From assembly GCA_976551045.1 (NCBI GenBank), contig CDPCPM010000281.1:9548001-9612000 (forward strand): a stretch of 64,000 bases of DNA, written 5' to 3'. Below the pieces are notes generated by a model. The model saw only the letters and a list, made by a program, of their open reading frames with translations, was not told the origin of the DNA and did not search any database. The stretch is from Glaucostegus cemiculus (lineage: Eukaryota). Positions 4,882 to 53,017 of this stretch are shown here, piece by piece. The position numbers and the translations under genes are program-made. The first letter of the stretch is position 1. Each line of letters starts with the position of its first letter.

Positions 4882-5012
4882 AGAATGTTGGAAATACTCA
4901 GAAGGTCAGGCAGCATCTGTGGTAAAAGAAACAGTTAATGTTCAGTTCCAAGACCCTCCGTCAGAACTGGGAAAGAATTTTGTTTCAGATTTCCAACATC
5001 TGCAGGGTTTTT
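4882..5012 (-). mobile_element. Penelope-like pLTR remnant with short inverted piece
   Basis: Reverse complement reads CCAGTTCTGACGGAGGGTC...ACATTAACTG...CACAGATGCTGCCTGACCTTCTGAGTATTTCCA; followed by the plus-strand piece TTTCAGATTTCCAACATCTGCAG. Confidence 0.8.
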
Positions 5013-6039
5013 TTTGACATTTTTTGTCACTTTCATTACTGGGAGGATCATTGCAAGTGAGGAGCAGCAGCTATTTGGGACTGAATTTCCTACAGTATTC
5101 CTGGCATTCTCCCAGTTAATACACAGACTAGATCTCATAAGAAGAACCTGTACATCTTACCAATCCTAAGAATCAGCAGGATTCCTTGGAATACTACAGG
5201 CATTCCTCCTACCCTATCCCTCTTGCCTCCCCTTTCTCCAGGACTAACCTCACATAGGAACAGTCCCTCAGGTCCACTGCTGTCAGACTGGCATCTGATT
5301 TCCCACTCTTGTTCACAGGCTTTGACCTCATTGCCATTGGCATAAAAGTTAAAATTGGAGACCCAGACACATCTCAGGTTAAAATCCAGATTATTTTAGA
5401 TGTAGGGATTTGGTCTTTGACCTGATAAAATTAAAAGGACTCTGGAGGTGTGCATATACGTCACTTTTTATTGTTCAGAGACGATCATTACAGTGAGATT
5501 TATCCCATATTTCTGTTAGATGGTTTCACCTAAATATATATGTTCCAAAGTTCATCTTTCACTGGGACTTCCAGATACAGGATGTCTGTATAACTGGAGT
5601 TCAGGTACAGGTTAAGGGGTTAAATGCTCTTGCTCCTCTGTTCCTTTATAATTGGAGCGTTCAAGTGCAGGAAATTACATTGGCAGCTGCCTTTAAATCA
5701 AAATGCCTGGTCTTGAAAAGGCCTATTCTCTTTTCTCTCATCTCTCCCACTCTCCCATAGATTTGGAGCCTCTGCATCACATGGAGGGTTAATTTCTTTG
5801 GGGATTCTGCAGGTTCACTGCGTAATTTACAGGGAAGATCTAGCGGAAAATGGCACTGATGCTGATTTTCCTGGGGTATCTGCAGGTAATTAGTTTATGC
5901 CTGCATGGATCTACCCTGTCCTCCCCCCCCCCCCATATCTTTGTGCCACCCTGCCTCGGCTATAAATAACATGTATATAAGAGGATGGTTTCCTATCAAT
6001 GCTCAATTAGAGAGCACAGCTTGTCCTAACATGGTTATG

Positions 6040-6500
6040 GCACATCAACGAGATTTATAAAGGCCGTTTGCATATTAAACTGATCTAGGGTACAAGAAAT
6101 GCCAGAACTGTACAAACACATGCCATCAACACCATACTTCGTCTCTTTGTTCAGCCTAAGGCAATCATATAGCAAGTCTCTTAAGAAATAAAGGTAATTT
6201 AGAGCAAATGTGTATGATCAGATTCATTTTATGCCTTATGTTTAATACACAGCTTCTCTCCCCAGAGAATAGTAAACGCAATAAAATAAGAACAGTGCGC
6301 ATGGATGTTAAAGGATTATGTGTCTTTTTTCACTGCTGAGGGGAGAAGATTGTGTTTACAGGCTTGAATGCACACTTGCTAGGCCAAGGCAGCAGTTGAT
6401 TGTGCTAGAACGCTCTGTCAGGCAATGATTTGTCAAGTAGTTTATCACTAATGTCACTTTTCAGCGTGTTGTCAGAGGTAACATATCGCCCCTTTCCCTG
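6040..6500. promoter_or_regulatory. Candidate conserved non-coding element / enhancer
   Basis: Repeat-free; GATTTATAA, octamer-like TTTGCATAT, TTTTATG and TGTCAG motifs. Conservation untested. Confidence 0.25.
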
Positions 6501-9350: not shown

Positions 9351-9368
9351 CTACCGAACAGACAGTAC

Positions 9369-9610
9369 CCAGATAGGGAACACACAGCGTGGGCCCAGAT
9401 AGGAAACATGCGATGTGGGTCCAGATATTGGAAAACACAGTGTGGGCCTAGATACGGAATACGTGGCGTGGGTCCAGACACAGAACACGTGGTGTGGACA
9501 TGGACATGGAACATGTGGTGTGGGTCCAGACACAGAACACGTGGTATTGATGCAGACACAGAGTACTAGGTACGGACCAAGACATGTATAGGGTGTGGAT
9601 TCAGACATGG
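9369..9610. repeat. Degenerate 26-bp minisatellite, about 9-10 copies
   Basis: Units such as CCAGATAGGGAACACACAGCGTGGGC, CCAGATAGGAAACATGCGATGTGGGT and CCAGACACAGAACACGTGGTGTGGAC. Confidence 0.9.
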
Positions 9611-9831
9611 AAGTCTTAGCAGCTGAATTTCTAATGTGCCGGCCTCTTCTCACTGCTCCAGCTGGCAGTGATCATTCTCAGTGACTTGTGCTTTGGTGCC
9701 TCAGTTTAGCTTCTTCAGACAAATAGTCCACATTAATTGCCAGGTGCATGCTCCTTGATTTAAGGCATTTGGCTATTCTGTTAGTCAACTTTTATCAGCT
9801 GCATCCACAGTATATCAATGAATACTACAAA

Positions 9832-9950
9832 AAAATACTTCAGGTGCTGGAAATCTGAAGTAAAATCAGAAAATGCTTGAAACACTCAGCAGCTCTGGCA
9901 ACATCAGTGGAAAGAGAAACAATGATTTAGGTCATAAATCCTTCACCAGC
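9832..9950 (-). mobile_element. Penelope-like pLTR remnant
   Basis: GCTGGAAATCTGAAGTAAAATCAGAAAATGCTTGAAACACTCAGCAG...GAGAAAC...CCTTCACCAG. Confidence 0.8.
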
Positions 9951-11261
9951 CTCCTTGCTTGTGTTTTGCTTCAATCTAAATTCTGATTTTGTGATCCAGG
10001 TCTTTGTGTTTGGCCTACCACGCCTTGAGTCTGAACCCCTGTAGTTGTTGGTGGTGTAAGTGACCAGAGCCACTTCACCAATGCCCCCAGGGATCAGTAG
10101 TAGAACAGCAACTAGAATACAGTGAAAGTTAGGAAAGAATGGTTTGTTCAGAGAACTACTGATTGGTGAAGGCAGAAATGTGTTACAGAGGAATTCTAGT
10201 CACCTTCTGCTGACTAATGATTGTCTGTTTTGTAATTTTTCCTATGTATTTAGAAGGAGGCTTTTCACCATTTTGACATTTTTCCTGAATTTGTAAAAAG
10301 GTCACATTTGAGCTACATAACACTTAAATGGCCTTAAGGTGAGTCTTTATTTTCATATTTTAACCTACAAACACGGAGGATCTGTAGTTAATTTCTTTGA
10401 TGTGTAAAGAGGAAAAGAATCTCATTATAGCCTGGAGGCACATTGCATGAAACAAAAGCATATGACCTTGTAGGCTGAACTGTCGCAATTTAATCAAGGT
10501 TCTTCGTTGAGCTACAAGAGGCAACTTAATTCTCACAACCTTGACTGATGATGATCGCTAAAGTGGTTGTTAATTGGTGAGAATAGCTCTCGTCAATCCT
10601 GAAAAGGTCTCCTTGGAGGGATCTGCGTTTCATGTAGTGAACGTGACAGATTGTCTGCATTTCCATACTGGAACCAGCCCTCACTGTTCTCCACATAATG
10701 CGCGTTCAGTCTCTGTGGTGGGATTCGAATTTACCCAATAAAAAATTAATTATGGGAATGTCAACAAAATATATTGCCTGTCAAAGAGTAATGGGAGGGC
10801 AGTGGTTACTGCTGGTGAAATTGAGGAAGGCCACATGGGACAGTGCAGAAAGGTGTACAGCCTCTGGCAGCATTCCTCTGGTTCACAGGGAGTTTAACCT
10901 TGGCAAGAACTTGGGAAATTGGTTCCTTTTGAGTAATTGATAGTATTTGAATTGCAGTGCAAAGCAGGAGGAGGCAGCAAGGAATGTGAGCTTAGTGAAA
11001 AGGCAAGTGCTATGGAGCCGTGAATTTTAAATGGAATGCATCCAAATACAACAAAGAACGGTAGTTTGAGGATTGGCTACAAACTATTCAAAGCAAACTG
11101 CAGTCAATTTTGCTACGTTGGAGGCTGGAGGTCGAAGTGCCTCCTAAAGAAAACGGCTTTCTATATTCTGTTGATTTTAATGTTGTTGCCTGGTCTGTCA
11201 GGAATCATTTAACATCAGCAATGCACTGAGCAGTAATAATGTCAGAGGCATTGCAGCCTAG

Positions 11262-13483: not shown

Positions 13484-13769
13484 ACTCCCTGTTCCCTCCA
13501 TCCCTCCCACAAACACCAAAAGATGCTAGGCGTACAAAAATGCACCAGCACTTTAAATGTCCATTGTCTGCTGTGTCTGTACGCTCACTCTAAGATTGTT
13601 TATTCGAGTCGCTATTTAATTTTGTGGTTCCAATGTTGTTAATGTCTTTGTGTCTCTCATTGTTTTTTTAATGTGACAAGCACCTTGATCTGTGGAGTAT
13701 GGTATTTTGCTCCTATGCATGCTGAATGTGTATATGGTAGTGACAATAAAACTGATTCTGATTCTGATT
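13484..13769 (+). mobile_element. Rex1/Babar LINE 3' UTR copy
   Basis: Colinear with 18552-18842; ends GACAATAAAA(CTGATT)3. Confidence 0.88.
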
Positions 13770-17949: not shown

Positions 17950-19108
17950 AAGAAAGAAAGAGACATATCCCTGTAGCCTCAACCAGGACATCCCAAAGTA
18001 CTTGTGCAGTTTAGTTACTTCTGTAATCTGGGAAATGCAGCAGTCAGTTTGGGCAAGGAAAGCTCCTACAACAGCAATGTAGTAATGAGAAGGTAGTCTT
18101 TTTTTTAATGATGTTTGTTGAAACAACATTACCTGGTCCATTAACACCATGGCCCTCACCAAGGAAGCCCAGAAGCGCCTCTACTTCCTGTGGAGACTGA
18201 GGAAAGTGAACTCCCATCCCTCGGTTATGAAAACTTTTTATAGAGGGACCATTGAGAGCATCCTAACAAACTGCATCACTATTTGGTTTGGGAGCTGCTC
18301 AGCTGCTGGACGGAAGTCCCTCCAGAGAATAGTGAGAGCGGCAGAGAAGATCATAGGTGTCTCTCTACCCTCTATTGCAGATATATATAAAGATCGATGT
18401 GTTAGAAAGGCCACAAATATAATGTCGGACCCTTCTCACCCCTCCTACCACCTCTTCACACTCTTGCCGTCTGGAAGAAGGCTCCAGTGCATCCGGGCAA
18501 GGACAACTAGACTGTGCAATAGCTTCTTCCCACAAGCTATTAGAACTGTGAACTCCCTCATCCCTCCATCACTCCCGCCAACACTAAAGGATGCTAGGCG
18601 TACAGAAACGCACCAGCACTTTAAATGTCTGCTGCCAGTATGCTCACTTTAAGATTATTTATTTAAGTTGTGTTATTTAATTTTGTGGTTCTAATGTTTT
18701 TAGTGTCTCTCTGTCTTTGTGCCTCTCAGTGTTTGTTTCTTTTTTTAATGTGACGAGCACCTTGACCTGTGGAGTACGGTATTTCACTCCTATGCATACT
18801 GAATGTGTATATAGTAGTGACAATAAAACTGATTCTGATTCTGTTTCTGAACAATGAACATTAGCCAGGATTCTGGAAATAGTTCCTCTGCTTTTCTCAG
18901 AAGTAATGCTGTAACACTGGTTACATACGCTTTAAGTGGGCACGTGGGGCCTTGGTTTAATGCAGCTCTTCAGTTGGTGCAGCAGCCCTTCAGTACTGCA
19001 GTGTAGTGTCAGCCTAGAATCTTGTTCTTGGGTTTCCAGAGAGGGATTGGAACCTACAAACTTCTGACATGGAGGTAAAAGTATTAACACCTGAACCACA
19101 AAGATACC
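17950..19108 (-). mobile_element. SacSINE1-like DeuSINE split by a Rex1 insertion (pieces ~17950-18120 and ~18845-19108)
   Basis: AGGACATCCCAAAG...ACAGCAATG (3' part) and GGGGCCTTGGTTTAA...CAGTACTGCA..GTGTCAGCCTAG...GAACCTACAAACTTCTGAC (5' part). Confidence 0.82.
18121..18842 (+). mobile_element. Rex1/Babar LINE, 5'-truncated: RT C-terminal ORF remnant (18149-18652) plus 3' UTR
   Basis: AQKRLYFLWRLRK..FYRGTIESILTNCITIWFG..DPSHPSYHLFTLLPSGRR..NSFFPQAIR is the characteristic Rex1 C-terminus; tail GACAATAAAACTGATTCTGATT. Confidence 0.95.
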
Positions 19109-19394: not shown

Positions 19395-19525
19395 ATCCTG
19401 CTGAAATAAACACAGACAATGCTCTTAAAGTGAAAGGTCAATGCCCTGAACGTTAATATTCTTTCTGTCTTCATAGGTGTGCCTGACATGCTGAGTATTT
19501 CCAGCATATTCTGTGTTTATTTGAG
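19395..19525 (+). mobile_element. Penelope-like pLTR remnant with short inverted arm
   Basis: TGAAAGGTCAATGCCCTGAACGTTAAT...TGCCTGACATGCTGAGTATTTCCAGCA; upstream AAATAAACACAGA is the inverse of TCTGTGTTTATTT. Confidence 0.75.
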
Positions 19526-20339
19526 ACAGATGCATGGTATATGTAAATGCATGATGTCACTGCATAGAATATTTGATCATGTGTATCGCTTTGTGCATGT
19601 GCACAGTCTGAGGTGAACCTTGAATAAACCACAAACACCTTCCTGAGCTCTCTGTGTTTCCCACAGATTACTCGGCACACTGCATGTTACTCTGCTGGAG
19701 ACTGGCGACCAACAGGGATCTATACATTACAAAATGTGCAGATGTTTTGTGATAAATTTGTGTCTGCGACTCCTGCGCAAGTTAATGCTCAGGGCTGTAA
19801 TACTCTCAAAACATCGGTGATCTAAATTACATGCACATTTCAAATACTATGAAAGGAAGTCACATGGAGCTGTTACATCAAACTGGTATCAAATAGCTTG
19901 ATACTATTGTATTGGAAGCAGGCCAAACCCTTTCACTAATGGCACAACAGGACCCAGCTGTTTGATGCATCAGCTTTGGTCTTAGGATAAAGCTGAATTT
20001 CTTTGTCATATTAAACCTAGACTTTAGGAACGAATGTTCATAAATCTGGGTATGACTGTTGTTTCGCCTTAACATACTTCCAGTACAAATTACACATTGT
20101 GCAGCATTTTTGTTTAGATGGCAGGACTTGCTATAAAGTATTTGAAAGCATCAACATCTGAAAGACAAAATGATTATCCAGAAATTTATCAACATATTCA
20201 ATGACTTTTTTGACGTAGATCACCAGCGTGTGATGTTTTGGACTTTCAAGGTTGTAAATGTCAGGGAAATAGATTAACAGTGAGGTGGGAGATCTGAATT
20301 TATATTTCTGTTTAGAGTGGAGAAAACGTAACTTCTGTA

Positions 20340-21240: not shown

Positions 21241-21627
21241 TTTTACCATTAGAGGAGGTTTATGCTCATTAAAACTTGGGTTGAACACACAGATATGTTT
21301 TCATGCAATCATGTGACTGCCTGAAAGGTAAATTGAGGGCATTTTGAGTAACCAGGAATGTATCATTATAGTTGTGTGATATTAGAGTTTGTTAGTGGAC
21401 TATAGACTCATATATTTATGTTCTGGGAGAGGGATGTTTCTCTTGGCTATGTTTTAATGCAAGTCATTGCAACACATAATATTTTTCCGGTATGAAAAAT
21501 CAAAAGGTCAAAATGTTTTTGTGCACATGCAGATCCTTGCTAAAATGGCATCAGTTTTGTGTAGGGAAGCAATTTTCTTTTGTAGTTCATGTGTCTGGTG
21601 TCAAACACATAAGCATTTGGAAGTGCA

Positions 21628-21724
21628 GCACCCAAAACATTGGAGTCACTCAGCAGGTCAGGCAGCGTCTATGGAGGGAAATGGACAATCAACATTTCAG
21701 GTCGAGACCCTTCACCTGGACTGA
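21628..21724 (-). mobile_element. Penelope-like pLTR remnant with degenerate hammerhead motif
   Basis: Reverse complement: AGTC-CAGGTGA-AGGGTCTCGACCT-GAAA-TGTT-GATT...AGACGCTGCCTGACCTGCTGAG. Confidence 0.85.
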
Positions 21725-21794
21725 GACCCTCTCTCCTCTGGCATTTGAAATAGTTGTACGCAGTGACCATGTGTTGTTACATATGAACCTAAGA

Positions 21795-22232: not shown

Positions 22233-22485
22233 GAATGCAGATTTCAGTGGTGGCCTTCCCAAAGAGGGCTCAGATAACTTGTGTTCCAGCAGGCTTTCTT
22301 CCTTCTACTTAAGTCTGCTCCCGCAATTAATGACTGCATCATTTCTGAAGCTTGTAAACATGCTTAAATGCTCCAACAGTACCGTCCAACGTGTTGCGTG
22401 CCGACTGATGTCACATGCATCGAAGATCGTATTACAGTTTCCCTTGTGCTCTGTCTGCTCATGTAAGTGCCAATGACATTTACAG

Positions 22486-22682
22486 AATCAGAAAACACTA
22501 GGCAGGTAAGGCAGCATTAATGCAAACAAAAACACAGTTAATGTCTCAGATCTGAGACCCTACATCAGACTTGAAATGATAATTCTGTTTCTCTTTCCAC
22601 AGATGCTGCCTTTCTAGCTGATCATCTCTAGCATTTCCTGTTTTTATTTCAGGTTTCCAACATCTGCAATTTTTTGATTTTT
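22486..22682. mobile_element. Inverted pair of Penelope pLTR fragments
   Basis: Minus arm GGCAGGTAAGGCAGCAT...CATCAGA joined to plus arm CTTGAAATGATAA...CACAGATGCTGCC...TTTCCAACATCTGCA. Confidence 0.8.
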
Positions 22683-26123: not shown

Positions 26124-26375
26124 GGCGGCACGATAGCGTAGCGGTTGGTGCGACGCTGTTATAGCGCCAGCGATCAGGGTTCGATTCCCGTCACTGTCTG
26201 TAAGGAGTTTGTACGTTCTCCCGTGTCTGCGTGGGTTTCCTCCGGGTGCTCCGGTTTCTTCCCACATTCTAAAAAGATGTACGGGTAGGTTAATTTGTGC
26301 GCTTAAAATGGGCAGCGCGGACTCATTGGGCCGAAAGGGCCTGTTACCATGCTGTAAATAAAATTTAAATTTAAA
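26124..26375 (+). mobile_element. Young V-SINE (HE1-like) with CR1-type tail
   Basis: A box TAGCGTAGCGG 26134-26144, B box GGTTCGATTCC 26178-26188, V-domain, tail GGGCCGAAAGGGCCTGTTACC; CpGs retained. Confidence 0.93.
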
Positions 26376-26465: not shown

Positions 26466-26710
26466 TCCCATCCTGTTCCCACACTGGCCTCTCTGCCTTT
26501 GGTGTCCTCCACTGTTCCAACGAAACTCAACATAAACTTGAGGAACAAAAACTAGGAACTTATTTCATTTCTAACCTTTCCTAGTTCTGATGTAAGGTCA
26601 TCAACCTGTAGCATTAACTGTGGTTCTATCTCCACAAGTGCTGCCTGACCTGCTGAGTATTTCTAGTGCTATTATTTCAGATTTCCAGCACGTCCATTAT
26701 TTTGCTTTTA
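26466..26710 (+). mobile_element. Penelope 3' fragment (GIY-YIG C-terminal remnant + pLTR)
   Basis: SHTGLSAFGVLHCSNETQHKLEEQ-like peptide, then AGTTCTGATGTAAGGTCATCAACCTG...GCTGCCTGACCTGCTGAG. Confidence 0.82.
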
Positions 26711-29300: not shown

Positions 29301-30821
29301 TTTGAAGATTGTGCAGAAGAAAGATGAATGATTTAAGGCTATTATCAGGTCTCAAGAGCACTCTTGGCTCACAGTTGAATGAGAAGTAAGACGAGGAGCT
29401 GGGTTTCAGTGTCCTATGTTTAAACAATGGCTGAAGAACCACACAGCTCTGACCTCGAGCAGTAATTCATGACTTACCTTGCTATTATGTCTGGTACAAA
29501 ATACACAGAGGAAAAGAGTCAAGTTTACATACATGGCAGATGTGGCTCTCTGTCAGTTAGTAATTTGAAAGTCAAATGCATTCAGAGACCAAATAGTATC
29601 ATCAGGAAGAAAATTGTTGTTTCATTTTTGGGAATTTTAAGGTTGAAATTGAGACTCTACTTGATAATAGCTTCCCCTTCCTCTGTCAACAGTAAGGGTC
29701 CAAAATGAACAGAATTAAAACAACCTCAATTGAATTTCAGATGGTGTAAATCAACAACAGTTTGGGATCTGACCAGGATGGCTGAGCTGTGAAGGTGGGG
29801 CTCCTCACAGAGGATTAAGACAGATCCAAGGGGCAACAGAGAGGGATGTTTACGGCCCGCACAGAGCGCATGGTGCTTAGATGAACATCAGACCTGTATC
29901 ATAGAGGCGGGAGGTAGAAATTTGTCTTCAATAGCGGTGCGAAATGGCCTTCTCAAATCAGCTGCTGCTGTGCACACCACCTGATACAGTCATACCTACA
30001 TTGAGGAATCTTCAGTTTTTGCTAAATTTCAATGTTAAGCCAAAACCACAACTTTTAGGCTTGGGACCATCATTGCTGAGCGCTGCCTCACTCATTCGCT
30101 CACACATTGACTCTTTCCATCTCTCACTCCCACACACGTTTCTCTAATCGGGCACCCAGTCCAGAAAGGAGAGTGGGTGACAGCAGAGAGAGGGTGACAG
30201 TGGAGGGTCAGCAGCAACAGTGTAAGGGAAGGAGGGAGTACAAAGTGATTGGCACATGGATGTTCTGGTCAGGGTTCGGGGACCAGAAAGGGTTTTTTGG
30301 GAGTCATCCAGTAAGGGGCAGTTGGCAGGTTAGTGGGACTGGCTCCTGGGGATGGATGAAACTGCGAATTAGGGCTGTGCCTCCACCACCCTGGGTATGA
30401 GAGGGAACAAAGCATCCCTTCTCATATCCCAGACCCAGGGTCATTACTGTTGAATGCTGCCCCCATTCATACTGGAGAATGGCAAGTAATGGCAACTGGT
30501 TATCAACAGGAGCGACAACTTCAAAATTAGCAGATAAAATATGTTTTTTAGAGAGTGTTGATGCCGTTTACGCTCAATACTTTCCACTACTTTGCCTGTT
30601 AAAACTCAGCCGCGGTTTTAGTTCATCTGGGAATTTAGGCAGGCCCTACTGAAGTATAATTCCACAGCAATCAGTGGAATTAAATATCGTGCCACATTTG
30701 TGAAGCAAAATAGTCAGCAAATATATGTTATTTTAGAAGCTTACCTGTTCTTTGTTCTCACCTGGAGGTAGCCTTATCAACAATTTAGCTTTCATCATCT
30801 CCACATGAAGTAGATTGAAAA

Positions 30822-30985
30822 TCAAAAACTGCTCATTCTAGAAATCTGATAAAAAAAACACAAAGTGCTAGAAATAATCAGTGAGTCAGGCAACATGATA
30901 AAGAATCCTGAAATGTTATCTCTGTTTCTCTCTGTACACATGCTGCCTGAACTGCTGTGTGTTTCCATCATTTTCTGTTTTTTTT
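30822..30985. mobile_element. Inverted pair of Penelope pLTR fragments
   Basis: GAAATCTGA..GTGCTAGAAATAATCAGTGAGTCAGGCAACAT joined to CCTGAAATGTTA..ATGCTGCCTGAACTGCTG. Confidence 0.78.
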
Positions 30986-31639
30986 TTCCATTGTGAACTA
31001 GGTTTAATTTGTATGATGGAGAACTACAAATTGTATAGTCGTTAGCTTTGCTCAATGATTAAAGTAAAAATTATGTCCTCTAAAATCAGATTGTTGAAAG
31101 CCTAATTCATTAATTTGAAACATAGCTCAATCTTGCAGATATATTTTGGTTTGCAAGTACCCTTTAGCAGAAGTGAACTAGTTTTCTTGGGAATATCCAG
31201 TTTCCTGTGCATTCTAAAATCTCACTGTCAGAGAGTATCATTGGCATTGTCATAGAATCTTCTTCTAAGTTGTCTAAATCCAGTGCCAGTATAAGTATAA
31301 AAGCTTCTGTATAAGTATCGACTCATCGAGTTAATATTCAGCTAAATATAACTTCTGAGTGGTCCATTTGAATAATGAAGTATAGCATCAACAGAGCACA
31401 ACCGGCAGAAACCAAGACAAGTTAACCATTCTACCTCCCCCTGCCACCATTGTAACCAATGCCTGATTTTTAATTCCATTGTCATTAGTGCAGTTAGATA
31501 TCAGGCAATGTGAATTAAGGGTGGATGATACATTACAGAATTACGCTGGATGAATTTCTCTCAGAGAGTCTTTGTGATCTCAACAATTAACCACAAAGTG
31601 ATTTTTTCCCCCCAATTTCTCAGCCACACAATGTTTGCT

Positions 31640-32238
31640 GTGCTTCACTTCTGTATCAGAAGCTTTTGGGTTCAAGTCCCAATCCAGATACTTAAGCACA
31701 AATATCCAGAATGATACTCCATTCCAATATAGAAGAAATATTGCGCTGGTTAAGATACTGTCATTCAGATTAGCCATTAAATATGGACTCTGTCTGTTTT
31801 CTGAGGGGGATGTAAAAAATCTCAAGGAATTATATGGAAGGGTAGTGGAATTCTCTCCATTGTACTGGCCAGTATAGAACCCTCACCCAGCATTTCTGTT
31901 TGTGGATCTTGTTAAGTACAACAAACAATCTGCTGGAGGAACTCAGCGGGTCAAGTAGCATCTATGGGGGGAAAAGGAATTGTCAATATTTCGGGTCAAA
32001 ATCCTGCATCAAATGTCGACAATCCCCCCACAGATGCTGCTCGACCCGCTGAGATCCTCCAGCAGATTGTCTATTGCTTCAGATTCCAGCATCTGCAGTC
32101 TCTGGTGTCTCTATTCCTAAGTGCAATTTTGGCCACCGTTTTTTCTACATTGCAAGAAGGAGGTGCCTCAGATGTCCTGCATTTGCTGTAAATGCTTTGG
32201 GATATCTGGAAAGAAAGGTGCTATGCAAATGTAGTTCT
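31640..32238 (+). mobile_element. SacSINE1-like DeuSINE interrupted by a Penelope-derived hairpin
   Basis: TCAGAAG..GGGTTCAAGTCCCAATCCAGA (B box), GGATGTAAAA, CTGTTTGTGG, then after the insert GCTGTAAATGCTTTGGGAT..AAAGGTGCTATGCAAATG. Confidence 0.82.
31922..32117. mobile_element. Non-autonomous Penelope-derived hairpin element with probable TSD
   Basis: Arms 31925-31991 and 32011-32070 are near-complementary; flanks TAAGTACAA (31913-31921) and TAAGTGCAA (32118-32126). Confidence 0.88.
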
Positions 32239-34016: not shown

Positions 34017-34079
34017 CAAACACATTAGGGACATGTAAAAAGAAGCTTCCTAGTTTGAGCTTGTTCAAAACTCTTTTGG

Positions 34080-34390: not shown

Positions 34391-34689
34391 TCTCACGTTA
34401 GCAGTACAGACTTTTACAGTGGGTGCCCCTTCGCATTACCAGTGCACTCCATTAGGTTCTTGTAATTTATTGTGGAATATAACAAAATTTCAGTTGGAAT
34501 ATCAAGAGAATAGACCAGTTTCTGTGGCAATCATTTCTCCATCTATCTGATAGGATGCTTCAATGGTTAAGCATATTACACAGTATCCGAAGAGAGTCAT
34601 GATCCCACCAACTTTAAACATAATGGTTCATACACATGAGCCAGAATTCAATGTGAATGTGTAACACCTCCCTAGACCCCAGAAAACAA

Positions 34690-37230
34690 AGAAAAACTAC
34701 AGAATAAAAACAGTTAACACTGGAACTGCTCAGTAGATCAGGCAGGATCTATGGAGGGAGAAACAGAACCAATGTTTCAGGTTGATTCCTTTCATAAGAA
34801 AGAGGCTAAGTTGGAAAATGAACACATTTTTCAGTTGCAGGGATAGGGTAGAGAGGTGGAGAGGACACAGGATATCTGTGGTAGGGTGGAGATCAGGAGA
34901 GATTGAAAGAGATTGAAGTGGTGGTGGTGCCGACTGAGGGAGGGTGGTGAAGCCTTGTTAATCACAGCTGATCTGCCTATCGAGAGGTAAACAGGAGATG
35001 ATTAAGAACAGAAAACAGAGGAAAAAAAAACAGTGCTGGATCTGTGAGATGCAAAACACTGCAGTTACTGGAAATCTGGAACAAAAGACAATGCTGGAAA
35101 TGCACAGCAGAAGAGGGAAAAAAACAGATTTAACAACATTTTGATGACTTTTCATCAGAACTGGCAAGTTCTGAAGGCTGGACTACTCCATTAGACCCAT
35201 TGCCTCAGCCTGTTCTTGACCCAGGAAACTTATTCCTTCCTTCCTTGCGTACAAACATATGAATTAGGAGCAGGAGTTGCCACTTGGACCCCTGAGCCTG
35301 CTCCATCATTCAATAACATAGCTGAAATGATAATCTCAACTCCGCCATTCCACCTACTCCATGTAACTTTTCCCACTTTGTTTATCTATCTTGGTCTTAA
35401 AACTATTCAAAGACTGTACTTCCACCACTCTTTGAGGAAATGACTTCCAAAAACTCACAACCCCCCTCCGAGAGAAAATAGTTCACCATCCCTTATTTTT
35501 ATACAGTGACCCCTAGTTCTATATTCAATCTCATTCACCCTTATCCACCTAAGCAAGACTCTTCCAGATTTTAAATGTTTCAATATAGTCATCTCTCACT
35601 CTTCTAAACGACAGTGGCAACAAGTCTAGCTGATCCAACCTTTCCTCATAAGACATTTGAGATATCAGTCTAATAATGGCACTCAATCTGCACTCATACC
35701 AATGTATATAGATCCTTCCCAAAATAAAGAGATCCACGTAGCAGACATTACTACAGAGGTGGTCTTATCAAGCCCTATATAGCTGAAGTATGAGCTTCCA
35801 ATTTTTGTATTCAGTTCCTCCAGCAATAAACAATAACATTCTGTTAGCTTTCCTAATTTGTATTTACATTCTACCATTTGGGGAATCATGCATTAGGATA
35901 CTCAGATCCCCTTCCCCCTCCATCCCACTTCAAGGAGATCTGAGGGCATTTTACTTCATTGAGCAGGGTCCCTCTCCATCACCAAACTCCTTCGCTTGGA
36001 TGGACTCACTCACACAATGACCAACTTCTCATTCACTTCCCCAAGGTGTAGCCATGGGAACCCACAAGGATCCAACTTTTCTGAGATTTGTGGAAGAGTT
36101 TTTGTTTCAGTTCAACTCATCACCCCACCCGCCACCGGGCTCTTCTATTTTTGATACAATGGAGCTATTTTCTGCTCTCAAGCAGAATTCAAATGTTCTA
36201 TCTTCTTTGCTGCTGGTTTTTGCACTGCTCTCACATTCATATGGTCCATCTCTGACTGTTGCTATCCCTGTCATGACTTCTCTATTACCAAGGGTTAGTG
36301 ATCATTATCCATTACAAACCCACAGCCTCCCACAGCAATCTTGACTGCGACACACAGACACATTATTGTAAGGACTGCATTCCATTCTCCCATTGTCGAG
36401 GGCTCCATTGTACCTGTTCTGACGGCACTTTCCTTTTCCCTTCCCACCACCCAGGAACCCTAACACTCCTTCCAGGTGAAGCAGCAACTCTCTTGCATGT
36501 CTTCTAATTTGGTGTACAACATTCAGTGCTGAATATGTGGTCTCTGCTATGTTATGGAATCCAAGCATAGATTGGGTGACCACTTCACAGAACACATGGG
36601 TGACCTTTAGTTCCCCATCACTTCGATTGTCTATTTCACTTCCAATCTCAACTTCCTTTCTTTGGTCTGTTATGCTATTCCAGCAAAGTCCAATAAAAGC
36701 TCAAGGAACAGCACCACATTTACACCCCTAAGAGCTCAGTATTTTCATCTAACTAGCCTTTTCAGTTTGTGTTGGAACTGGCCAGTTCTAATGAAAGATC
36801 ATCAACCTGCAACATTAACAGTTATGCACTCTCCACAGATGCACCCTGACCAATTGGCTATTTCCAGCATTCTCTTTTATTTTGCTTTTCCAACAATGGC
36901 AGTGTTCTGTATATCACACTTCTGGCATTGATTTAATTTCTCTTTCATCTGTCTTCATTCAAATCCTTGTATTCATATCTCTTCCAGACAGATCAGCTGC
37001 TATCAGCAAGAACTCATCATACTCTCTCAAGTAGTTTTGCTGCCTTTTCTGTCACACAGATATTCTTGATCTCCACTCCACCACAGACATTTCCTTTATT
37101 TGCTCCACCTCTGTAATTTAAAGCATACTCCATTTCTAACTTCTGCAAATTTCAATGAATGGTCATTGAGCTGAAACATTAACTTTGTTTCTCCCTCCAC
37201 AGTTGCTGTCTGATCAGCTGAATAGTTACA
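34690..37230 (+). mobile_element. Internally deleted Penelope-like element: inverted pLTR pieces (34690-35165), RT and GIY-YIG remnants (35905-36760), two plus-strand pLTRs (~36780-36920, ~37140-37230)
   Basis: QGVAMGT at 36042-36062; IHYKPTASHSNLD..CKDCIPFS at ~36300-36390; FQVKQQLSCMSSNLVYNIQC*ICGLCYVMESKHRLGDHFTEH at 36470-36595. Confidence 0.87.
35250..35905 (-). mobile_element. CR1/HER1 LINE 3' portion lying inside the Penelope element
   Basis: GAATTAGGAGCAGGAG tail; minus ORF SYEERLDQLDLLPLSFRRVRDDYIETFKI. Confidence 0.88.
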
Positions 37231-37239
37231 ACATTCTCA

Positions 37240-37680
37240 GTGTACACCTCCTTAATTCTCTCCACCCTATTTTAAGTTACTCTTTAAAATTTGTCACTTC
37301 TTTAATCAGGGTTTTTGACATCTGTCCTGAAGTCACTCCAATACCTTTGGAAAGCACTGAGGGAAATTTTACTCTGTTAAAAATACTACACAGATGCCAA
37401 CCTAACTGAGAGCAGAATCAAGAAGCAACCTTTAACAGGAGGAGAGGCTTCAACGATGTGACAGGACTTAAGAAGAGAGGTCCAAGTATTGACGGTTGAA
37501 AGATCTATCACCAAAGAAACCATACTTGGAAAGTGAGGTGTGCAGGAGGTTCGACTTAAAGGATCATGGACGTTGGCTGTGATGGAGGGCTAGAGAAGGT
37601 TGTAGAGCAAGGACGCACATAGACCAAAGGTAGATTTGTGAAACTATATTTAAGAAACCTGATGAACAAGGCAGATTAGA
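37240..37680. mobile_element. Degraded L2-like fragments
   Basis: CTCTTTAAAAT..CTTTAATCAGGGTTTTTGAC..CTGTCCT 3'-end pattern, followed by a purine-rich reverse piece. Confidence 0.4.
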
Positions 37681-39633: not shown

Positions 39634-41252
39634 GATATCAGGCACATATATTGTATACCTAGAATTTTGCTGTCACTAGTTCAGAGGAAAAGAAATCCCT
39701 CATTTGAAGTGCGAAGCTCCAGCTGTCGACCCCTGCAGTATCTAAGCTCCTCGTTGCTCAGAGAGTGGCGTGTTCAATAACAGCAAAGGTGCCACAAGAT
39801 TGAATCTGCTGTGATTTTACAGAAAAACCATCTGAGGGCTCAACAGCGCAATCTTGATAAGATGTTTAGATGTAGAGCTTCAACTGAACTAGTCCAAACA
39901 ACATATACTGCTTTTTCAAAAAAAATAGTAAATCAAAGTCTATCTATTTCTTTCACATCTCTTCTGCAACGGTTTTACTAAACATTTTGCTGTATGAGCA
40001 GACAAGAACTATACACACTTATTTACTTGCACCTACCTTGTTGTTTGTAATAAATTAGTATAATTGTCTCAGCTGCTTCTCAACTAAATATTTTAAGAGT
40101 TTGCTTTACTTTCAGAGAAGCACCATCCGAGTCTGTTGCTCTATTCAAGAGATGGTTTTAATATTACATGTGGAATGAGGGATGGATAGCAAGCTGGAGT
40201 TTATTAAAAAGAGATGCTGAATTGCAGTTTTTTAAATACAGTTATGTAAACTCAATGTTTCCCCTTGTTTTTTCTCGTTCTTGAGTATATCATGACCTGG
40301 AGCCTTTTTATGACTAACCTTCTAAGTTCAATTTTAGCAGCATCCAATTCTTTGGCAATATCAAACGGCTTGTGCGTTGAACACTATTTGCTGGAAAACG
40401 GGTACAGTAGAATGTCTCAAGTGATAACTTTCACAAACCATCAGTGTAAGATCCAATAAACTGTCAGTGCAGATTCCACTATAGGCCAGTGGCCTACTTA
40501 TTCATCTCCATGCAGGAGATCTGTTTATCACACATGTTTCTGGGAGTCATATTGTGGGAGTTCTGTATTGAATTATTTTGATTTCAAAGCAATTCAGGGA
40601 ACAGCAATGGCTCAGTAGTCAAATTACTACCTGGCTTTCTTTGAAGTCTCATAAGTTTATCCATCAGGTAGTTAAGCCATACAACTAGCTTTGGCGCAAT
40701 GGCTCAAAGTGTGTGCCAAAGGGAAATGATACATTGCAGTTCCCAGCATTGAAGATTGTGGGTACCACACGCACTCTGACCAAAATTGAGGAATGCAGTC
40801 GTTCACCTCCCTTTGTAGAGTCTTCCTCAAATGGGAGCTGTATAGGGAGGCACGAGTGGGGGTTCTCACTCATGCCTCCTTATACTGCTCCCATTTGTAC
40901 TTTCACTGCTGTATGGCTTTCAGTTCCCTTTCCTGCATCCCTGGCAACAGCATTTCTAATCCATGAAGCCATGTACTATCATATAAACAAACAGTCCATG
41001 TTGCGCTACCAGGACCACTAGTGAACTATATCCTTGAAACGATCCTTCTGTGCCAACAATTCCATATCCATGGCCAAGTTTGCTACAGGCTTAGCTCTGT
41101 GGGGAGATGTTAAATGTGTTTAAATTAACAGAAGGACTACTGTTAGGAAATTTGGAACACACTGCTCCTTCAGAAAATAATTTTTGCCACATTTAGAAAA
41201 TCAGAACGTACATTTAATAAAAGAAATGCTTTAAAAGAAATCACTTCACAAA

Positions 41253-41497
41253 CCAGTTCTGATGAAGGGTTCCAGACCTGAAAGTTTAGTTGTTTCTCTT
41301 TCCAGAGATGGTGCCTGATCTGCAGAGTGTTTCCAGCACTTTTTATCTTCATTTCAGATTTCCAGCATCTGCAGTTTTGTTTTGTAGGAATTGTAGAGGA
41401 AACTGTAGAGGAAGCTCGCAGTATCTTGGGATGAAAGCTGAAAACGTTGTTAATACCCTGCAGATCAGGGAGCATCTGTGGTGAAAGAAGTACAGTT
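41253..41497. mobile_element. Penelope pLTR (+, 41253-41380) with best-preserved hammerhead core, plus a minus-strand piece (41436-41497)
   Basis: AGTT-CTGATGA(41259-41265)-AGGGTTCCAGACCT-GAAA(41280-41283); TTTCAGATTTCCAGCATCTGCAG. Confidence 0.85.
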
Positions 41498-42379
41498 GGT
41501 TGTGGTGACGTTGCTAGTGATTCCAATCACAACTAATGGCATTAAGTCATTTAGGCAGCAGTAAGCCCTGGATTTCTGCACTGATGCTACAAGACAAACA
41601 ACCCTGGGATTTATGGGACAGCTTCAGAAGGCTGAAGGTCGCTGCTTTACTCAGCGGCTGGACTCCACATGGACCTTAGCAGCAAAGCTCAGTCTGGCTG
41701 GGATTCCTCTTGGGAATTGCCGATTTGATCCCAAAGTGTGGTGTAGGATTCCAAATCCCATTCATTCATTGGGGTTTGCAGTTTGAAGATTTAGGAAGCA
41801 AAACAAAGTTACTTCTTTAAATTATTTTGCTTTATTTTAGTTTTTAATTATTTATGTATGTGTTTTATGTTTGTAGTTAATTACATTTTTTAAATTATCT
41901 CTTTAATGACTTACTTCAATATTAATTGTTGTTGAATTTCTTCAAGTCGGAAACATTTAACAGTTATTAAAACCAGTGAAAATGTTTACAGTGGCAAAGC
42001 CCTGGCCCCAGGTTTTTGAAAGTTGCCAGGGATGATTTTGGGAGATGGGGTCTCCTCATTTGCAGTCATCATTCAGACTGAGCTGCAGGGAGTGGAGGAC
42101 CAGCAAGAAAGACCTCCCACCTCTGGCTCGTTGAAGTATGTGCACAGGAGGACCAAGACCTGTGATGCCAGGCAGGGGGAGTAGGCCAGAACCATCCAGC
42201 CCACTATTTTCAATGATCATCATAAATTGCTACTAAACATTGCTTGGGTCATGATAAAATACTTTTTAATCCCCTACTTTATAAAGAATGCAGTGAGTAC
42301 GCAGCATTGTCACCAGACTGATACTCAGAGTAAGTTATCAGACAAAACTAAAAAATACTGGCATTATTTCTATTGGATT

Positions 42380-46817: not shown

Positions 46818-47210
46818 AAAACAGAAAATGAAGGGAAAGCTCAGCCAGGGTCCCTCCCCAATGACCGAGAGCAGCCAGGTTCTGTTTCAGGTCAATGATC
46901 CTCTGTTGGAATTGGAAATGTTGGAGATAAACCACTTTTAAACATGTACAAACTTTGTGACAAAGGACAGGGAAAGAATGAAAGGGAGGGTCTGCAGTGG
47001 AGTTGAGGGCAGGAGAGATTCAATGGCAAAAGTGATGATGCTTTAAGATAAAGGAAGGTGACAATAACTGGCTCACCCCTTGCTTAACAGCTATCCATCT
47101 TCTGATGAAAGATCTTCAACCTGAAATGTTAACGCTACAGATGCTTCCTGTCCTGCTGAGTGAATCTAGCAAGTTATGAGTCTATTTCAAATGTCTAGCT
47201 TCCATTTTTG
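46818..47210. mobile_element. Inverted Penelope pLTR fragments
   Basis: Minus arm TGTTTCAGGTCAATGATCCT plus a purine-rich stretch; plus arm CTGATGA(47102)..CCTGAAATGTTAAC..CAGATGCTTCCTGTCCTGCTGAG. Confidence 0.75.
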
Positions 47211-49210
47211 ATTGACCAGCAGTTTTAGGCTTGGTGAACAGAATTAAATTTAGAAATGCCTTTATGTAGATGACAGGAAGGAGTTGAAATTCATTTCCAA
47301 AGTCTATGACCCCAGTCTAAATTGAGACAATAAAGTGTGATCTAACTGGAAGTGAAGTGATACCAGAGGGAGGTTGAAGAAAATTAAATTTTCTGCATTT
47401 TAGGGGTTATGGAATGAACAAATGCTCTTGCTCTGCATACAGCTGAATGAAATGGCATCAATCAACACTTCCCCACTTACATAGATTATGATGTACTCAG
47501 CAGCCCTCAGCACTGTCAAAACACATCAGTTTAATGGTCACTTTGCATCATTCTTATAAACCACATGATTCCCTGTGATTTCTGTTCCCATTGTTACTTG
47601 CACTACCAGTGTGCACGCTCAAGAACCCAAGATCACACTTCCTTGCTTCTTCCATGTTCATCGGAGCCACTGACGCAACCTACAGACCCAGAAGGGTTAG
47701 ATTTGTGCTGATTATAACTTTCCAATTGTGATTCAACAGTTATTCTGAAGGCTGTGTGAGCTCAGGGTTATGTTTCTAAAGGCCCTGACAGGAAGCCAAC
47801 AACAGTATGAAATGTAGAATCATTAGTACACCCTGCTCCTCTACTGTCTACCTTCACAAATCCAGCAGTGAGATAGTTGCATAACTGCCTGCATTCTTTG
47901 AATTTTCTCTCTGCTTCTTAGTAGAAGAAGAATGTGGTCATTGTCTGAAAATAATTTTAAAATGTCAATGTGTTGCACTAACCAAAATCTGCATCACTGC
48001 CTCATTATGACCACAAGTAGAGGGCTGCCATTGACCTTTTTATTTAGATGAGTGTTTCCTAACACAACTCAAAGTGGAAAAGGTATCCTAAATGTGTGTC
48101 ACACACAAAAAAAGAGATTGCTTTCCAAACCTCTGTCAATACTGAAATTAAAAATTTTGTAGATGTGCATTTTTTGACCAGTAATGTTTGTACACAGAAG
48201 CCCACATATGCTATTTAATGCTCTGACTTTAACAATGATAAGTCAACAGAAACAATCTTTGTTGATTTATTAGTAATAGGACTATAACATTTTTTTTACA
48301 TAAAGCAAAATGCTTTATTGTGTCACAAAAGTGAATTATGTTTAAAATCCAATCACTAAATGCAAATGGGACCATAGCACACTGCCCAAATTCAAAGATG
48401 CATTTACACTCATACACCACCAGCCACATGCAATGACCCAATGACCCTTCCTGTGTAAGATTCAGTTATGCAGTCGAGGCCCACAAGTGATGCCAGCTAC
48501 CCACACTGATGTCGGCTCTCGGTGAGGCTTGTTCTGGCATGAGTAAACATGTAACTAAGGCTGCTGATGGCCTCAGGAACCTGCTCACCTGTCCTCCTCC
48601 TCTCTTCCACCGATCCCCAGTTTAATTGTCTCTCCAACGAAGTCCCCACCTTTGACGTAAGCACATCTTACAACCCCCATCCTGCGCCTCCCCATGACAC
48701 AACCAATTCCCAGAGCTGATCCTCCTCCCCTCCTTCCAGGTCCAATCTATTCTCCGTTCCCTACTCTTCAGCCACTCCCTTTCTTCCCCATTTATGCAAC
48801 CCCACTCCTGCTTTCCCAAACCTCACCATTGATTCATGGTCTACCTGACCTCCTCCCACAGGACTAGTGGAGAAAAGGCCTTTACTACACTAAGGTGTGT
48901 GAAGTCCATTCTCCCACTGACAAAGAGCCTCTTACCAACCAAGTGCTGCTTCAACATGCCTTTCCTGACAGGAAAGAAATTCCAACCAGCTTTTTAAAAG
49001 CAGTATGCAGTATCCCTTTATGTGTTCCTTTGGACAGAGCAATAACTTATGCAACTATAAATGTTAAAGCTTGCCACTCAAACCAATATGTGAACAAATT
49101 CTTTAAACCTCATTTATCTGCAAAAATGAGCAAACAAAATCCTCTCTCTGCTCTCTATGTACAGAGCCTCTCAAAAATTTGGTCAAGATTTTGCTCTCTG
49201 CTGGATTAGC

Positions 49211-50350: not shown

Positions 50351-50441
50351 GTTTCTCATTGACTGTTGTTATTTTTCAAAAGAGCTAAGTACTTATTATC
50401 TGAATAAACATTTTATTTGCTCTCTGTGTAAGAATGATAGA

Positions 50442-50599
50442 ATCATAGAAATTCCCAGTCTGGGAGGAGGTTGTTTAGCCCATTGTCTGGGGGAAATCTC
50501 TTGAAGTAACCATGCTGAACATACAGTATTTGGAGAAAGCTGGATGTTTTGCTAGTTGCCACCCATTTTCAAGTCCAGTGTTTGGTTTTTGATCCAGAC
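50442..50599 (+). repeat. Direct repeat, copy 2 (partner 49211-49363)
   Basis: Colinear with copy 1 at an offset of about 1.23 kb. Confidence 0.85.
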
Positions 50600-51854
50600 T
50601 GGCTAGAAATTGGATTTCATCCATTTTGTCCATTTTTGCTGTGCTGGATTCCACCCCCTCCCCCCCACCCCCAAATCAGAGAAAACATTATTGTGGTTTA
50701 CTCCCTTTAAGGAGCATTAAGCCCAGATTTACATGTTCATTGGTTGCAGCAACTGCCTCCCTCACACACTACCTTCTGGGAAGTAGGTCAGTGTCACTGA
50801 AGGGATCTTTCCACGGCAGGCCCCCACGAAGGTGAGGGAAAAGCGGCAGGGTGGGGGGAGGGGAGGGGAGGGCTGCCATATCAGAGTGGAGGAAGGATTT
50901 AACCTTGCCAAGACCTGGTGCCACGATTGGCTTCAGTTTGCTATCAGACCCATCAGGTCACTCCATAGCAATCATTGGAGCCTTGGTGCTGCTCATCTGC
51001 TGATGAAGGAGAATGCATCCAATTTCTGGACATTTGAGTTAAATAGAGCTTAGGGAACATAAATGACATTTTGCAATCCCTTAAGGGTTCCTAATGGCCT
51101 GCAGTCTAGGAACATGGACAGATTAATCTCTGGATTCCACTGAGTGAATTCAAATCTTTAAATAACACTATTTTTTTAATGAATAGGATTTTAGGAACTT
51201 TTGAATATTAAGAAATAATGGACCTCAAAGGGGAATTTTTTAAAATTTTAACTATAGGGAAAAGCTAATATTTGATACTTACTCCATTTTTCTTTTTTTT
51301 AAACCTAATACTTAAGAACTAAATCTAATTCTTCCCCTGTCAGTTTCCTAAGGCAATGATTAGATCTAGGTGTCAGTATGTGTATTTGTAGATAGAACAC
51401 TATTACTGAACACTGTGATATGGAAGGACAGAGTAGCTCAATATTATTTTTATGATTCAATAATAGATAATAATAATTGTATTTTCATCGGTTAACCTCA
51501 GCCCCATTCATTTACCCAGGAGTAAGAGTCTGACTTCCCTTCTCTGTTTATCTCTGTCGTATACTGAAATGGTGAAGCTGTGCATCAGGCCCTGTGGCTG
51601 GGTTGATTGCAGTGTCTTAGTGATGTTTCTTACAGTTTACAAACAAAATAAAATAGATTAAAAACATTGCATGAGGTAACCTGGTGGTTCCGATGGTTAG
51701 TCTGCCAATATGCTGCTCCAACGAAGGAGAGAATCCAGATGTGTCTTCCTTAGAACCCTTGGCCAAAGAAACACCTTCAGTTAAAAGTTGTGTGTTTAAC
51801 CTCTTACTGACCACTCTATATTGGTTCCAGAGCCTCAGAGCACATCACTGTGTA

Positions 51855-53017
51855 GTTTAGGTTGAGGTACGATAGGCTCCAAACCTATCTCTGGGAAGCA
51901 AATAGACTGAAAAACCCTGGAGAATGTGGACCATTTACTACATCTCAGGAGCCACCTCTTGATGAAATTCACCAATGCTTTCAGTGTGCCATCACAGCCT
52001 TTGTTTGGGAGAGGAGGAGGAGGAGGATATTTGAAGGTCAAGACCTTAGACCTGGCACAAAACTCATGCCCAGTGGAGCAGCGATGATCACTGCCCTCCT
52101 ATATGCTTCTGAGATCTGGACTAGCTGCAGCAGGCACTTAAAGGAACTGGCAAAATACCACAACGCTGTTCTAGCAAAATACTCCAGACCCAGCATCAGT
52201 GTCCTCTCCCAGGCTGACATCCCCAGCATTGCCCCTCTAGTTGCACTCAGCTGCCTACGATCTGCAGGCTATGTAGTTCATTTGCCTAATACCAGACTGC
52301 AAAGTTAGGCAACAAACAATCTGCTGGAGGAACTCAGCGGGTTGAGCAGCATCTATGGGAGAAAAGGAATTGTCAACATTTCGGGTCAAAATCTTGCACC
52401 AGGGCTCCCTCCTCACTTCACCAATCACCTCAGACTCCTGTCTCACCACTCCCCTTCTCCCTTTTATACTGGCCATCACCCTCCTGCACTCCCAGTCCTG
52501 ATGCAGGGTCTCGACCTGACACATCAACAATTCCTTTACCGCCGCAGATTGTGCACGACCCTCTGAGTTCCTCCAGCAGATTGTTTGCTGGTCCAGATTC
52601 CAGCATCTGCAGTCTCTTGCGTCTCCAAAAATAGGCAGTCTATTGTAAGTTCTGTCATGGGAAGAGATTACCAGACAGGTAGAGGAAAAGATTCAAGACG
52701 GTGCTCAAAATTTCCTTGAGGAAAGACAATATCCCCAGCCCCTTCTGGAAATCCCTGGCACATGACTGCTCAAAATGTCAAAGGAGCATTCAGAGTGGCT
52801 TTGAGAACCTGAAGTTCATGCGTTGGAAGCAGACAGAAGTGGTGGGAGGAGCACACCACTTCACAAGCTACGCCACTTGGCCACAACTTCTGTCCCATTT
52901 GGGGAAGGTTCTGCAATTCCCACAATGGCCTCAGCAGCCACCTCGACACCTACAGAATAACACAGTGGAAGCAAGTCATCCACAGTGACCCTGGCCTTGT
53001 CCCTAAGAAAAGGAAGG
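51855..53017 (+). mobile_element. RTE-clade LINE 3' portion, interrupted at ~52312-52625
   Basis: LDEIHQCFQCA..IFEGQDLRPGTKLM..ALLYASEIWT..SVLSQADIPSI; resumes with RKRFKTVLKISL..WKSLAHD and a C-terminal CPIWGRFCNSHNGLSSH motif at ~52891. Confidence 0.9.
52312..52625. mobile_element. Non-autonomous Penelope-derived inverted-repeat element with TSD
   Basis: Same termini as 31922; TSD CAAAGTTAGGCA (52300-52311) / CAAAAATAGGCA (52626-52637). Confidence 0.9.

What the first reader, a model, noticed from the sequence alone, without database searches (positions are those of the whole stretch)
4882..52625. Penelope-derived short elements carry a minimal hammerhead ribozyme motif
Seen: about a dozen copies can be aligned by eye to AGTY-CTGATGA-(A)GG..CCY-GAAA-CG-TY-RACT. 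Core CTGATGA and GAAA are intact at 41259-41283 and 47102-47126. The loop appears as CG (19451), TG (47127, minus copy at ~21692) and CA (37177), the pattern expected from CpG decay of a palindromic ACGT. Established: Penelope-like elements encode minimal type I hammerheads whose short palindromic helix III is thought to work as a dimer. Inference: the ancestral element was self-cleaving, and sense copies in this intron are degenerate, possibly selected against cutting the pre-mRNA.
Basis: partly seen in the sequence, partly recalled or inferred. Interest (0 to 1): 0.7.

Follow-up and report, generated by a model that had tools for sequence, protein, structure and literature searches.

The report
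Decayed Penelope ends with hammerhead fossils
These scattered repeats are the broken-off tail ends of a known kind of jumping gene (Penelope-like) and carry worn copies of the small self-cutting RNA motif already described for that class; they are likely inactive, and a test in other genes' introns gave no overall sign that the host weeds out copies that could cut its transcripts.

Summary
The window has 20 copies of a ~140-bp repeat. Their subfamily majorities have a minimal type I hammerhead layout: helix I, CUGANGA, one unpaired A, helix II, GAAA, palindromic ACGU. Penelope origin is shown: decayed RT and GIY-YIG coding sequence (35968-36723) lies just before the copy at 36784. A core-plus-ACGT pattern has 14,623 genome matches against 12 in the control. 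The CG/TG/CA states fit CpG decay. Only 2 of 12 core-spanning window copies keep all core bases and neither keeps ACGU. The selection idea is not supported. In 1.2 Mb inside eight genes of known strand, copies are 127 sense and 131 antisense, intact cores 11/58 and 4/44, and the core decays no slower than the tail. One weak post hoc excess of A6/A9 changes in sense copies remains. No host exon was identified; the + strand is only inferred as sense. This is the min-HHR of PLE pseudo-LTRs (PMC4209133). This scan found the same thing before on other DNA, including this genome.

The parts
41254..41292 (+). Best-preserved hammerhead relic (old subfamily B): all core bases, helix I 5 bp with two G-U pairs, helix II 5 bp, helix III AGUU instead of ACGU, cleavage triplet UUU
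   Evidence: hammerhead-like fold -2.6 vs MFE -6.0 kcal/mol
41241..41387 (+). Whole repeat copy carrying the 41259 motif and the optional tail
   Evidence: nhmmer E 3.5e-34
41391..41513 (-). Tail-only inverted copy, 3'-joined to the 41241 copy
47084..47217 (+). Copy with intact core (47102-47126) but helices I and II of 2 bp; helix III AUGU
   Evidence: hammerhead-like fold +5.1 kcal/mol
35968..36723 (+). Decayed Penelope-like coding sequence (RT then GIY-YIG endonuclease), with stops and frameshifts
   Evidence: tblastn with pieces of loci L121 and L011, E 2e-8 to 2e-12; E 2e-13
36770..36915 (+). Repeat copy (subfamily B) directly downstream of that coding relic; core broken at two bases
37134..37268 (+). 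Repeat copy, CA at 37177, core broken
26569..26710 (+). Repeat copy, three core changes
19407..19541 (+). Repeat copy keeping CG at 19451 but without CTGATGA or GAAA
4837..4982 (-). Repeat copy (subfamily B), two core changes
9825..9968 (-). Repeat copy (subfamily B), three core changes
21596..21735 (-). Repeat copy of the younger subfamily A, TG in helix III, two core changes
22468..22682 (.). Inverted pair of 5'-joined copies (22586-22468 minus; 22534-22682 plus)
30816..31012 (.). Inverted pair of truncated copies
31893..32111 (.). Inverted pair, subfamily C (CUGAUGC core)
52287..52625 (.). Inverted pair, subfamily C (CUGAUGC core)
34682..34822 (-). Repeat copy, one core change, helix I 5' strand lost
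35046..35175 (-). Repeat copy with a deletion across helix II

Best explanation
The repeats are 5'-truncated 3' ends (pseudo-LTRs) of endonuclease-positive Penelope-like retrotransposons, each carrying a decayed minimal type I hammerhead that likely cut the parent element's RNA as a dimer or with protein help and is now likely inert. Shown: the motif sits a short way downstream of the GIY-YIG coding end on the same strand; the subfamily majorities have helices I and II and a palindromic ACGU; copies often sit as 5'-joined inverted pairs and end at two points about 30 nt apart. Inferred from homologues: two hammerheads in a tandem element transcript pair through ACGU to form helix III and cleave after GUC or GUU. 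Inferred: once inserted, a copy decays at about the neutral rate, fastest at its CpGs, and has no nearby intact same-strand partner, so the host has little reason to select on its orientation.
For: PLE link: RT and GIY-YIG relic at 35968-36723, about 65 nt before the core of the 36784 copy. In all 32 loci fetched by the family's GIY-YIG piece (4 of them re-fetches of the same places) a same-strand repeat copy lies downstream of it, and L121 also holds RT sequence. That piece matches an intact RT-GIY-YIG protein of this genome at E 1e-11. Layout: subfamily A CAGUC/GACUG, subfamily B CAGUU/AACU, a C-G to U-A swap at pair 2.1:1.1 (C:G 35 of 55 in A; U:A 20 of 37 in B). An unrelated young PLE keeps the same core and ACGU with different helices, UUCCC/GGGAA and GCUC/GAGC. 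Genome count 14,623 vs 12 control. 124 of 307 copies are in inverted pairs, 61 of 63 pairs 5'-joined; 3' ends cluster at 90-104 and 120-139 nt after C3, as described for PLEs (bioRxiv 2021.04.23.441226, passages). Decay: core vs tail mismatch 0.108/0.082 (A), 0.165/0.149 (B), 0.132/0.097 (C). Orientation: 127:131 overall (95% CI of sense fraction 0.43-0.55), solo copies 77:83.
Against: No cleavage was tested, so ancestral activity rests on homologues; a review says dimers are likely (PMC6765202, passages), while a lizard PLE hammerhead cut only with protein added (PMC11167929). Core mismatch is slightly higher than tail mismatch when pooled (145/1110 vs 326/3108, p=0.023); shared sub-lineage variants such as U4A (12 of 55 in A) could cause this. 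A6 and A9 are changed more often in sense copies (16/92 vs 2/68; post hoc, permutation p 0.14 for the top position and 0.048 for the top two). CA exceeds TG at ACGU (81 vs 52, p=0.015) without an orientation difference, unexplained. The 2.1:1.1 swap is one lineage event, not many independent ones. Rfam gave no hammerhead match in the window or in four loci with intact motifs.
Confidence: 0.88

Rival explanations
1. One reading: intronic sense copies are degenerate because the host selects against cleavage of its pre-mRNA.
For: A6/A9 changes 16/92 sense vs 2/68 antisense (post hoc). Core mismatch a little above tail mismatch overall. Xenopus non-LTR retrozymes are reported as under-represented in introns (bioRxiv 2026.07.22.740005, Results part 1), but the part read reports no strand test.
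Against: Counts 127:131; intact cores 11/58 sense vs 4/44 antisense; core+ACGU+helix I 4/58 vs 2/44. A strict descriptor gives 3 sense vs 2 antisense complete motifs in 1.2 Mb. All 12 core positions together: 75/552 vs 65/408, p=0.31. The tail also shows a strand asymmetry (A>G 0.078 vs 0.054; T>C 0.059 vs 0.078), so part of any excess at A is mutational. The two core-intact window copies lie on the likely sense strand.
Confidence: 0.07
2. The short repeats are a separate non-autonomous retrozyme or SINE family that spreads through circular RNA released by its own hammerheads.
For: Most copies are short and lack coding sequence; non-LTR retrozymes are proposed to derive from pLTRs (bioRxiv 2026.07.22.740005). 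Head-to-tail arrays of another hammerhead exist in this genome.
Against: 5' ends are ragged and run continuously into GIY-YIG and RT sequence in longer copies. Window copies are solo or inverted, not tandem.
Confidence: 0.04
3. One window copy (41259) is a domesticated intronic ribozyme, like the conserved amniote intronic hammerheads.
For: It keeps all core bases and can form helices I and II with wobble pairs.
Against: The hammerhead fold is 3.4 kcal/mol above the MFE, ACGU is lost, the triplet is UUU, and no intact same-strand partner is near. Core-intact copies are common among decayed ones (18 of 119). Its best genomic matches are paralogues at 80-87%.
Confidence: 0.01

Closest known systems
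Minimal type I hammerheads (min-HHR) in pLTRs of metazoan Penelope-like elements (Cervera and De la Pena 2014, PMC4209133)
   Same: Type I topology, short helix I, one unpaired base between positions 9 and 10.1, palindromic 15.2-16.2, thousands of mostly solo copies from truncated PLEs, opposite-strand pairs nearby.
   Different: Host is likely a cartilaginous fish, not named in the parts of that paper read (supplements not seen). Helix II is short (4-5 bp). Subfamily B closes it with G-U rather than G10.1-C11.1. Subfamily C has C at position 9.
Insertion units of canonical EN+ PLEs (Neptune, Penelope/Poseidon); PAc of Anolis (PMC11167929; bioRxiv 2021.04.23.441226)
   Same: RT followed by C-terminal GIY-YIG, 5' truncation, adjacent inverted 5'-truncated copy, optional 30-40 nt tail, hammerhead in the pLTR.
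   Different: No intact ORF of the window's families was recovered (longest open frame 591 aa among 150 scored hits). The clade was not determined by phylogeny.
Non-LTR retrozymes of animals (bioRxiv 10.64898/2026.07.22.740005)
   Same: pLTR-related, hammerhead-bearing, non-coding copies; reported in one chondrichthyan genome.
   Different: Window copies are dispersed truncations, not tandem monomers of fixed length.

Membership tests
PLE minimal type I hammerhead | Core CUGANGA, GAAA, UH in type I order | tested here: met
   Met by majorities of subfamilies A and B and 14,623 genome matches vs 12 control; only 2 of 12 core-spanning window copies keep it. Subfamily C has C at position 9.
PLE minimal type I hammerhead | Helix I and helix II complementarity | tested here: met
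   A: CAGUC/GACUG and 4-bp helix II. B: AGUU/AACU and GGGUC/GACCU. One compensatory swap between subfamilies. Broken in most window copies.
PLE minimal type I hammerhead | Unpaired base between 9 and 10.1; G10.1-C11.1 pair | tested here: met
   A at that column in 91% of 194 copies. G-C in subfamilies A and C; G-U in B (TG in 55 of 78).
PLE minimal type I hammerhead | Palindromic helix III stub (15.2-16.2) | tested here: met
   CG/TG/CA states: A 31/9/21 of 67, B 6/17/33 of 81, C 5/18/19 of 51, consistent with an ancestral ACGU.
PLE minimal type I hammerhead | Self-cleavage as a dimer or with protein help | not testable with these tools
   Needs an in vitro assay.
EN+ Penelope-like element | RT followed by C-terminal GIY-YIG, motif in the pLTR downstream | tested here: met
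   Window 35968-36723; L121 and the other GIY-YIG loci.
EN+ Penelope-like element | 5' truncation, inverted 5'-joined copy, optional 30-40 nt tail | tested here: met
   61 of 63 inverted pairs 5'-joined; two 3'-end clusters about 30 nt apart.
EN+ Penelope-like element | Placement in Neptune or Poseidon clade by RT phylogeny | not tested
   No tree was built.
Non-LTR retrozyme | Tandem monomers of fixed length between intact hammerheads | tested here: not met
   No such array in the window; ragged 5' ends.
Domesticated intronic hammerhead (RECK type) | Conservation at the orthologous site across species | not testable with these tools
   The genome has no relatives held.

The most novel reading that the evidence does not exclude
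Penelope lineages with shared changes in the catalytic core spread widely in this genome: subfamily C (CUGAUGC, 3-bp helix I; 58 of 276 classified copies) and a U4A group (12 of 55 in subfamily A). Either these are working hammerheads with an undescribed core, or the fold was kept for protein binding and cleavage is dispensable for spread in vivo, as shown only in vitro for a lizard element.
Probability: 0.25. Interest if true: 0.45.

Novelty: new member of a known kind. Interest (0 to 1): 0.2.

Why it matters
As a class it is known: Penelope-like elements carry minimal hammerheads in fish, coelacanth, frog and reptiles. What this adds is modest. The relics are very abundant here (307 copies in 1.464 Mb sampled; about 600,000 genome-wide if the sample is representative, an extrapolation). 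The first strand test we could run argues that they are harmless passengers in introns. The same genome offers natural variants (core changes, long versus minimal helix III) that make the open question of what PLE hammerheads do directly testable in vitro.

Tried and rejected
Rfam scans gave no hammerhead match in the window or in four loci with intact motifs; the minimal form is evidently not caught by those models. A Pfam RT search of the genome returned long open frames that were not followed up. The GIY-YIG family search led to a different, young PLE family rather than the window's. Host gene: no Pfam hit over cut-off in 299 ORFs, no CpG island, splice-site candidates uninformative. Sequencing runs: no RNA holder listed; no read data were obtained, so expression, exons and the transcribed strand remain open. 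Lunse et al. (dimer cleavage of PLE hammerhead variants) is not held; it is known here only from a reference list and a review passage, so the A9C and U4A variants could already be described there. Searches for a shark or ray report: 1 paper, which mentions only the shark-head shape; 0 papers; 2 papers, unrelated by listing. Rows dropped: 31 of 307 copies were too short to classify; 119 of 276 reached both helix I and the tail and entered the core test, 102 of them in genes of known strand. Rejected: chance match, retrozyme, domesticated ribozyme, selection on sense copies.

Full report
Observation. The two cited cores are present, but the loose pattern alone is within chance (3 matches, 1.08 expected, 12 of 100 shuffles). 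The family is not chance: an iterated profile finds 20 window copies at E<1e-3 among 24 hits, on both strands. The CG copy at 19451 lacks the rest of the core, and the 41259 copy has GT there. Twelve of 20 copies span the core; 2 of 12 keep all 11 invariant bases.

What the repeat is. The genome is 2.85 Gb. That it is a shark or ray is my recall of this repeat type and the wording of earlier notes, not a result of a call. An exact intact-core pattern found 45 copies and 0 controls. Several of the 30 fetched share upstream sequence of varying length that translates to a GIY-YIG end. That piece has 35,362 first-look candidates in the genome and matches an intact RT-GIY-YIG protein at E 1e-11. 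In all 32 loci examined around it (4 are re-fetches) a repeat copy lies downstream on the same strand, and L121 also carries RT sequence. In the window, decayed RT and GIY-YIG sequence at 35968-36723 runs up to the copy at 36784. So 'Penelope-derived' is shown for both the younger and the older subfamily. In 1.464 Mb sampled there are 307 copies; 124 lie in inverted pairs, 61 of 63 pairs 5'-joined, with ragged 5' ends and two 3'-end clusters about 30 nt apart. These match the inverted copy and optional tail described for PLEs (bioRxiv 2021.04.23.441226, passages).

The hammerhead. I split 276 of 307 copies into four groups by the tail; the number four was my choice, as BIC favoured two. Subfamily A has helix I CAGUC/GACUG, a 4-bp helix II and a GUC site. 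Subfamily B, which most window copies belong to, has AGUU/AACU, a G-U-closed helix II and a GUU site. The 2.1:1.1 pair is C:G in 35 of 55 A copies and U:A in 20 of 37 B copies: a compensatory swap, but a single lineage event. An unrelated young PLE keeps the same core and ACGU with other helices. Subfamily C reads CUGAUGC or CUGAGGC in 20 of 33 copies. A core-plus-ACGT pattern has 14,623 matches against 12 for the reversed control; many belong to tandem arrays of that other family. Intact A copies fold helices I and II at about -11.5 kcal/mol, within about 2 kcal/mol of the MFE, in which the core pairs with the cleavage site; the window's best copies score -2.6 and +5.1.

Decay. At ACGU the states CG/TG/CA are 31/9/21 of 67 in A, 6/17/33 of 81 in B and 5/18/19 of 51 in C, as CpG decay predicts. 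CA exceeds TG (81 vs 52, p=0.015) equally in both orientations, which I cannot explain. Non-CpG core positions differ from the subfamily majority about as often as tail positions, slightly more when pooled (145/1110 vs 326/3108, p=0.023). There is no sign that cores are preserved.

Selection on sense copies. I located eight large genes by same-strand Pfam CUB or Ion_trans exon hits and fetched 1.2 Mb inside them. Copies: 127 sense, 131 antisense (CI of sense fraction 0.43-0.55); solo copies 77:83. Among 102 copies that reach helix I and the tail, intact cores are 11/58 sense and 4/44 antisense, and complete motifs 4/58 and 2/44. CG retention is 20/94 and 20/98. Against my reading: A6 and A9 are changed in 16/92 sense against 2/68 antisense cases. 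This is post hoc (permutation p 0.14 for the top position, 0.048 for the top two), all 12 positions together show no excess (p=0.31), and the tail has its own A>G strand asymmetry. The sample is small and made of CUB-domain and ion-channel genes only. For the window itself no exon was found. TA skew has the sign of the gene strand in 8 of 8 known genes and is positive in the window (+0.023), so + is likely sense; + copies average 1.4 core changes (n=5) and minus copies 1.86 (n=7).

Mechanism. Shown: anatomy, position in the pLTR, decay. Inferred from homologues: in the parent element's tandem transcript two hammerheads likely paired through ACGU and cleaved after GUC or GUU. Cervera and De la Pena saw no monomer activity and low dimer activity for a schistosome motif (PMC4209133, parts 1-2 of 4 read; supplements not seen). 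A lizard PLE hammerhead cut only with protein and was not needed for insertion in vitro (PMC11167929, passages and second part of the main text). Dispersed, decayed copies without a partner would therefore be inert, which fits the lack of strand bias.

Literature seen. PMC6155905, PMC6765202 and PMC5408684: passages. bioRxiv 2026.07.22.740005: abstract and Results part 1 of 2; it reports retrozymes in one chondrichthyan and links them to pLTRs; its supplements could not be seen. Lunse et al.: not held. Searches found no paper on shark or ray PLE hammerheads or on a strand test; subscription journals are not covered.

Verdict. A real, ordinary member of a known class. Earlier notes of this scan reached the same reading on other DNA; they are not independent evidence. 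Interest 0.2.

Noticed in passing
L074:5822-5880 (also L071, L072, L073, L082, L084, L085, L087): A young, intact PLE family (740-aa RT-GIY-YIG ORF plus an 855-aa upstream ORF whose tail looks like an SGNH esterase by recall; Pfam did not call it) carries a hammerhead with a full 5-bp helix III whose MFE is the hammerhead fold (-18.4 kcal/mol), so it is predicted to work as a monomer. Esterases in fish Neptune-like PLEs are mentioned in PMC5408684.
   Followed up: partly
G000:C4:8736-99608 and L086: More than 60 identical minimal (ACGU) hammerheads of that same family in head-to-tail arrays with about 1.1-1.2 kb period near contig ends, with TTAGGG runs nearby. This is a dimer-ready, retrozyme-like context and a natural pair with the long-helix-III version.
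   Followed up: partly
window 31893-32111 and 52287-52625: Subfamily C has C at core position 9 and a 3-bp helix I as shared traits; a U4A group exists in subfamily A.
   Followed up: partly
eight gene regions, L123-L242: Repeat tails show a strand asymmetry of transitions (A>G higher on the coding strand), as expected for germline-transcribed regions.
   Followed up: partly
window 28998-29200: 24-bp tandem repeat, 8.5 copies.
   Followed up: no
window 9358-9562: Degenerate 26-bp tandem repeat.
   Followed up: no
window 4116-4409, 26124-26341, 59829-60045, 61327-61583: A second dispersed repeat family with a weak tRNA-like hit at 4342-4409 (E=2), possibly a tRNA-derived SINE.
   Followed up: no
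window 18122-18652 and 13484-13769: Open frame resembling the 3' end of a LINE ORF2 (by recall), with a related copy about 5 kb upstream.
   Followed up: no
window 40830-40895: A short near-perfect hairpin with sub-threshold miRNA-family hits.
   Followed up: no
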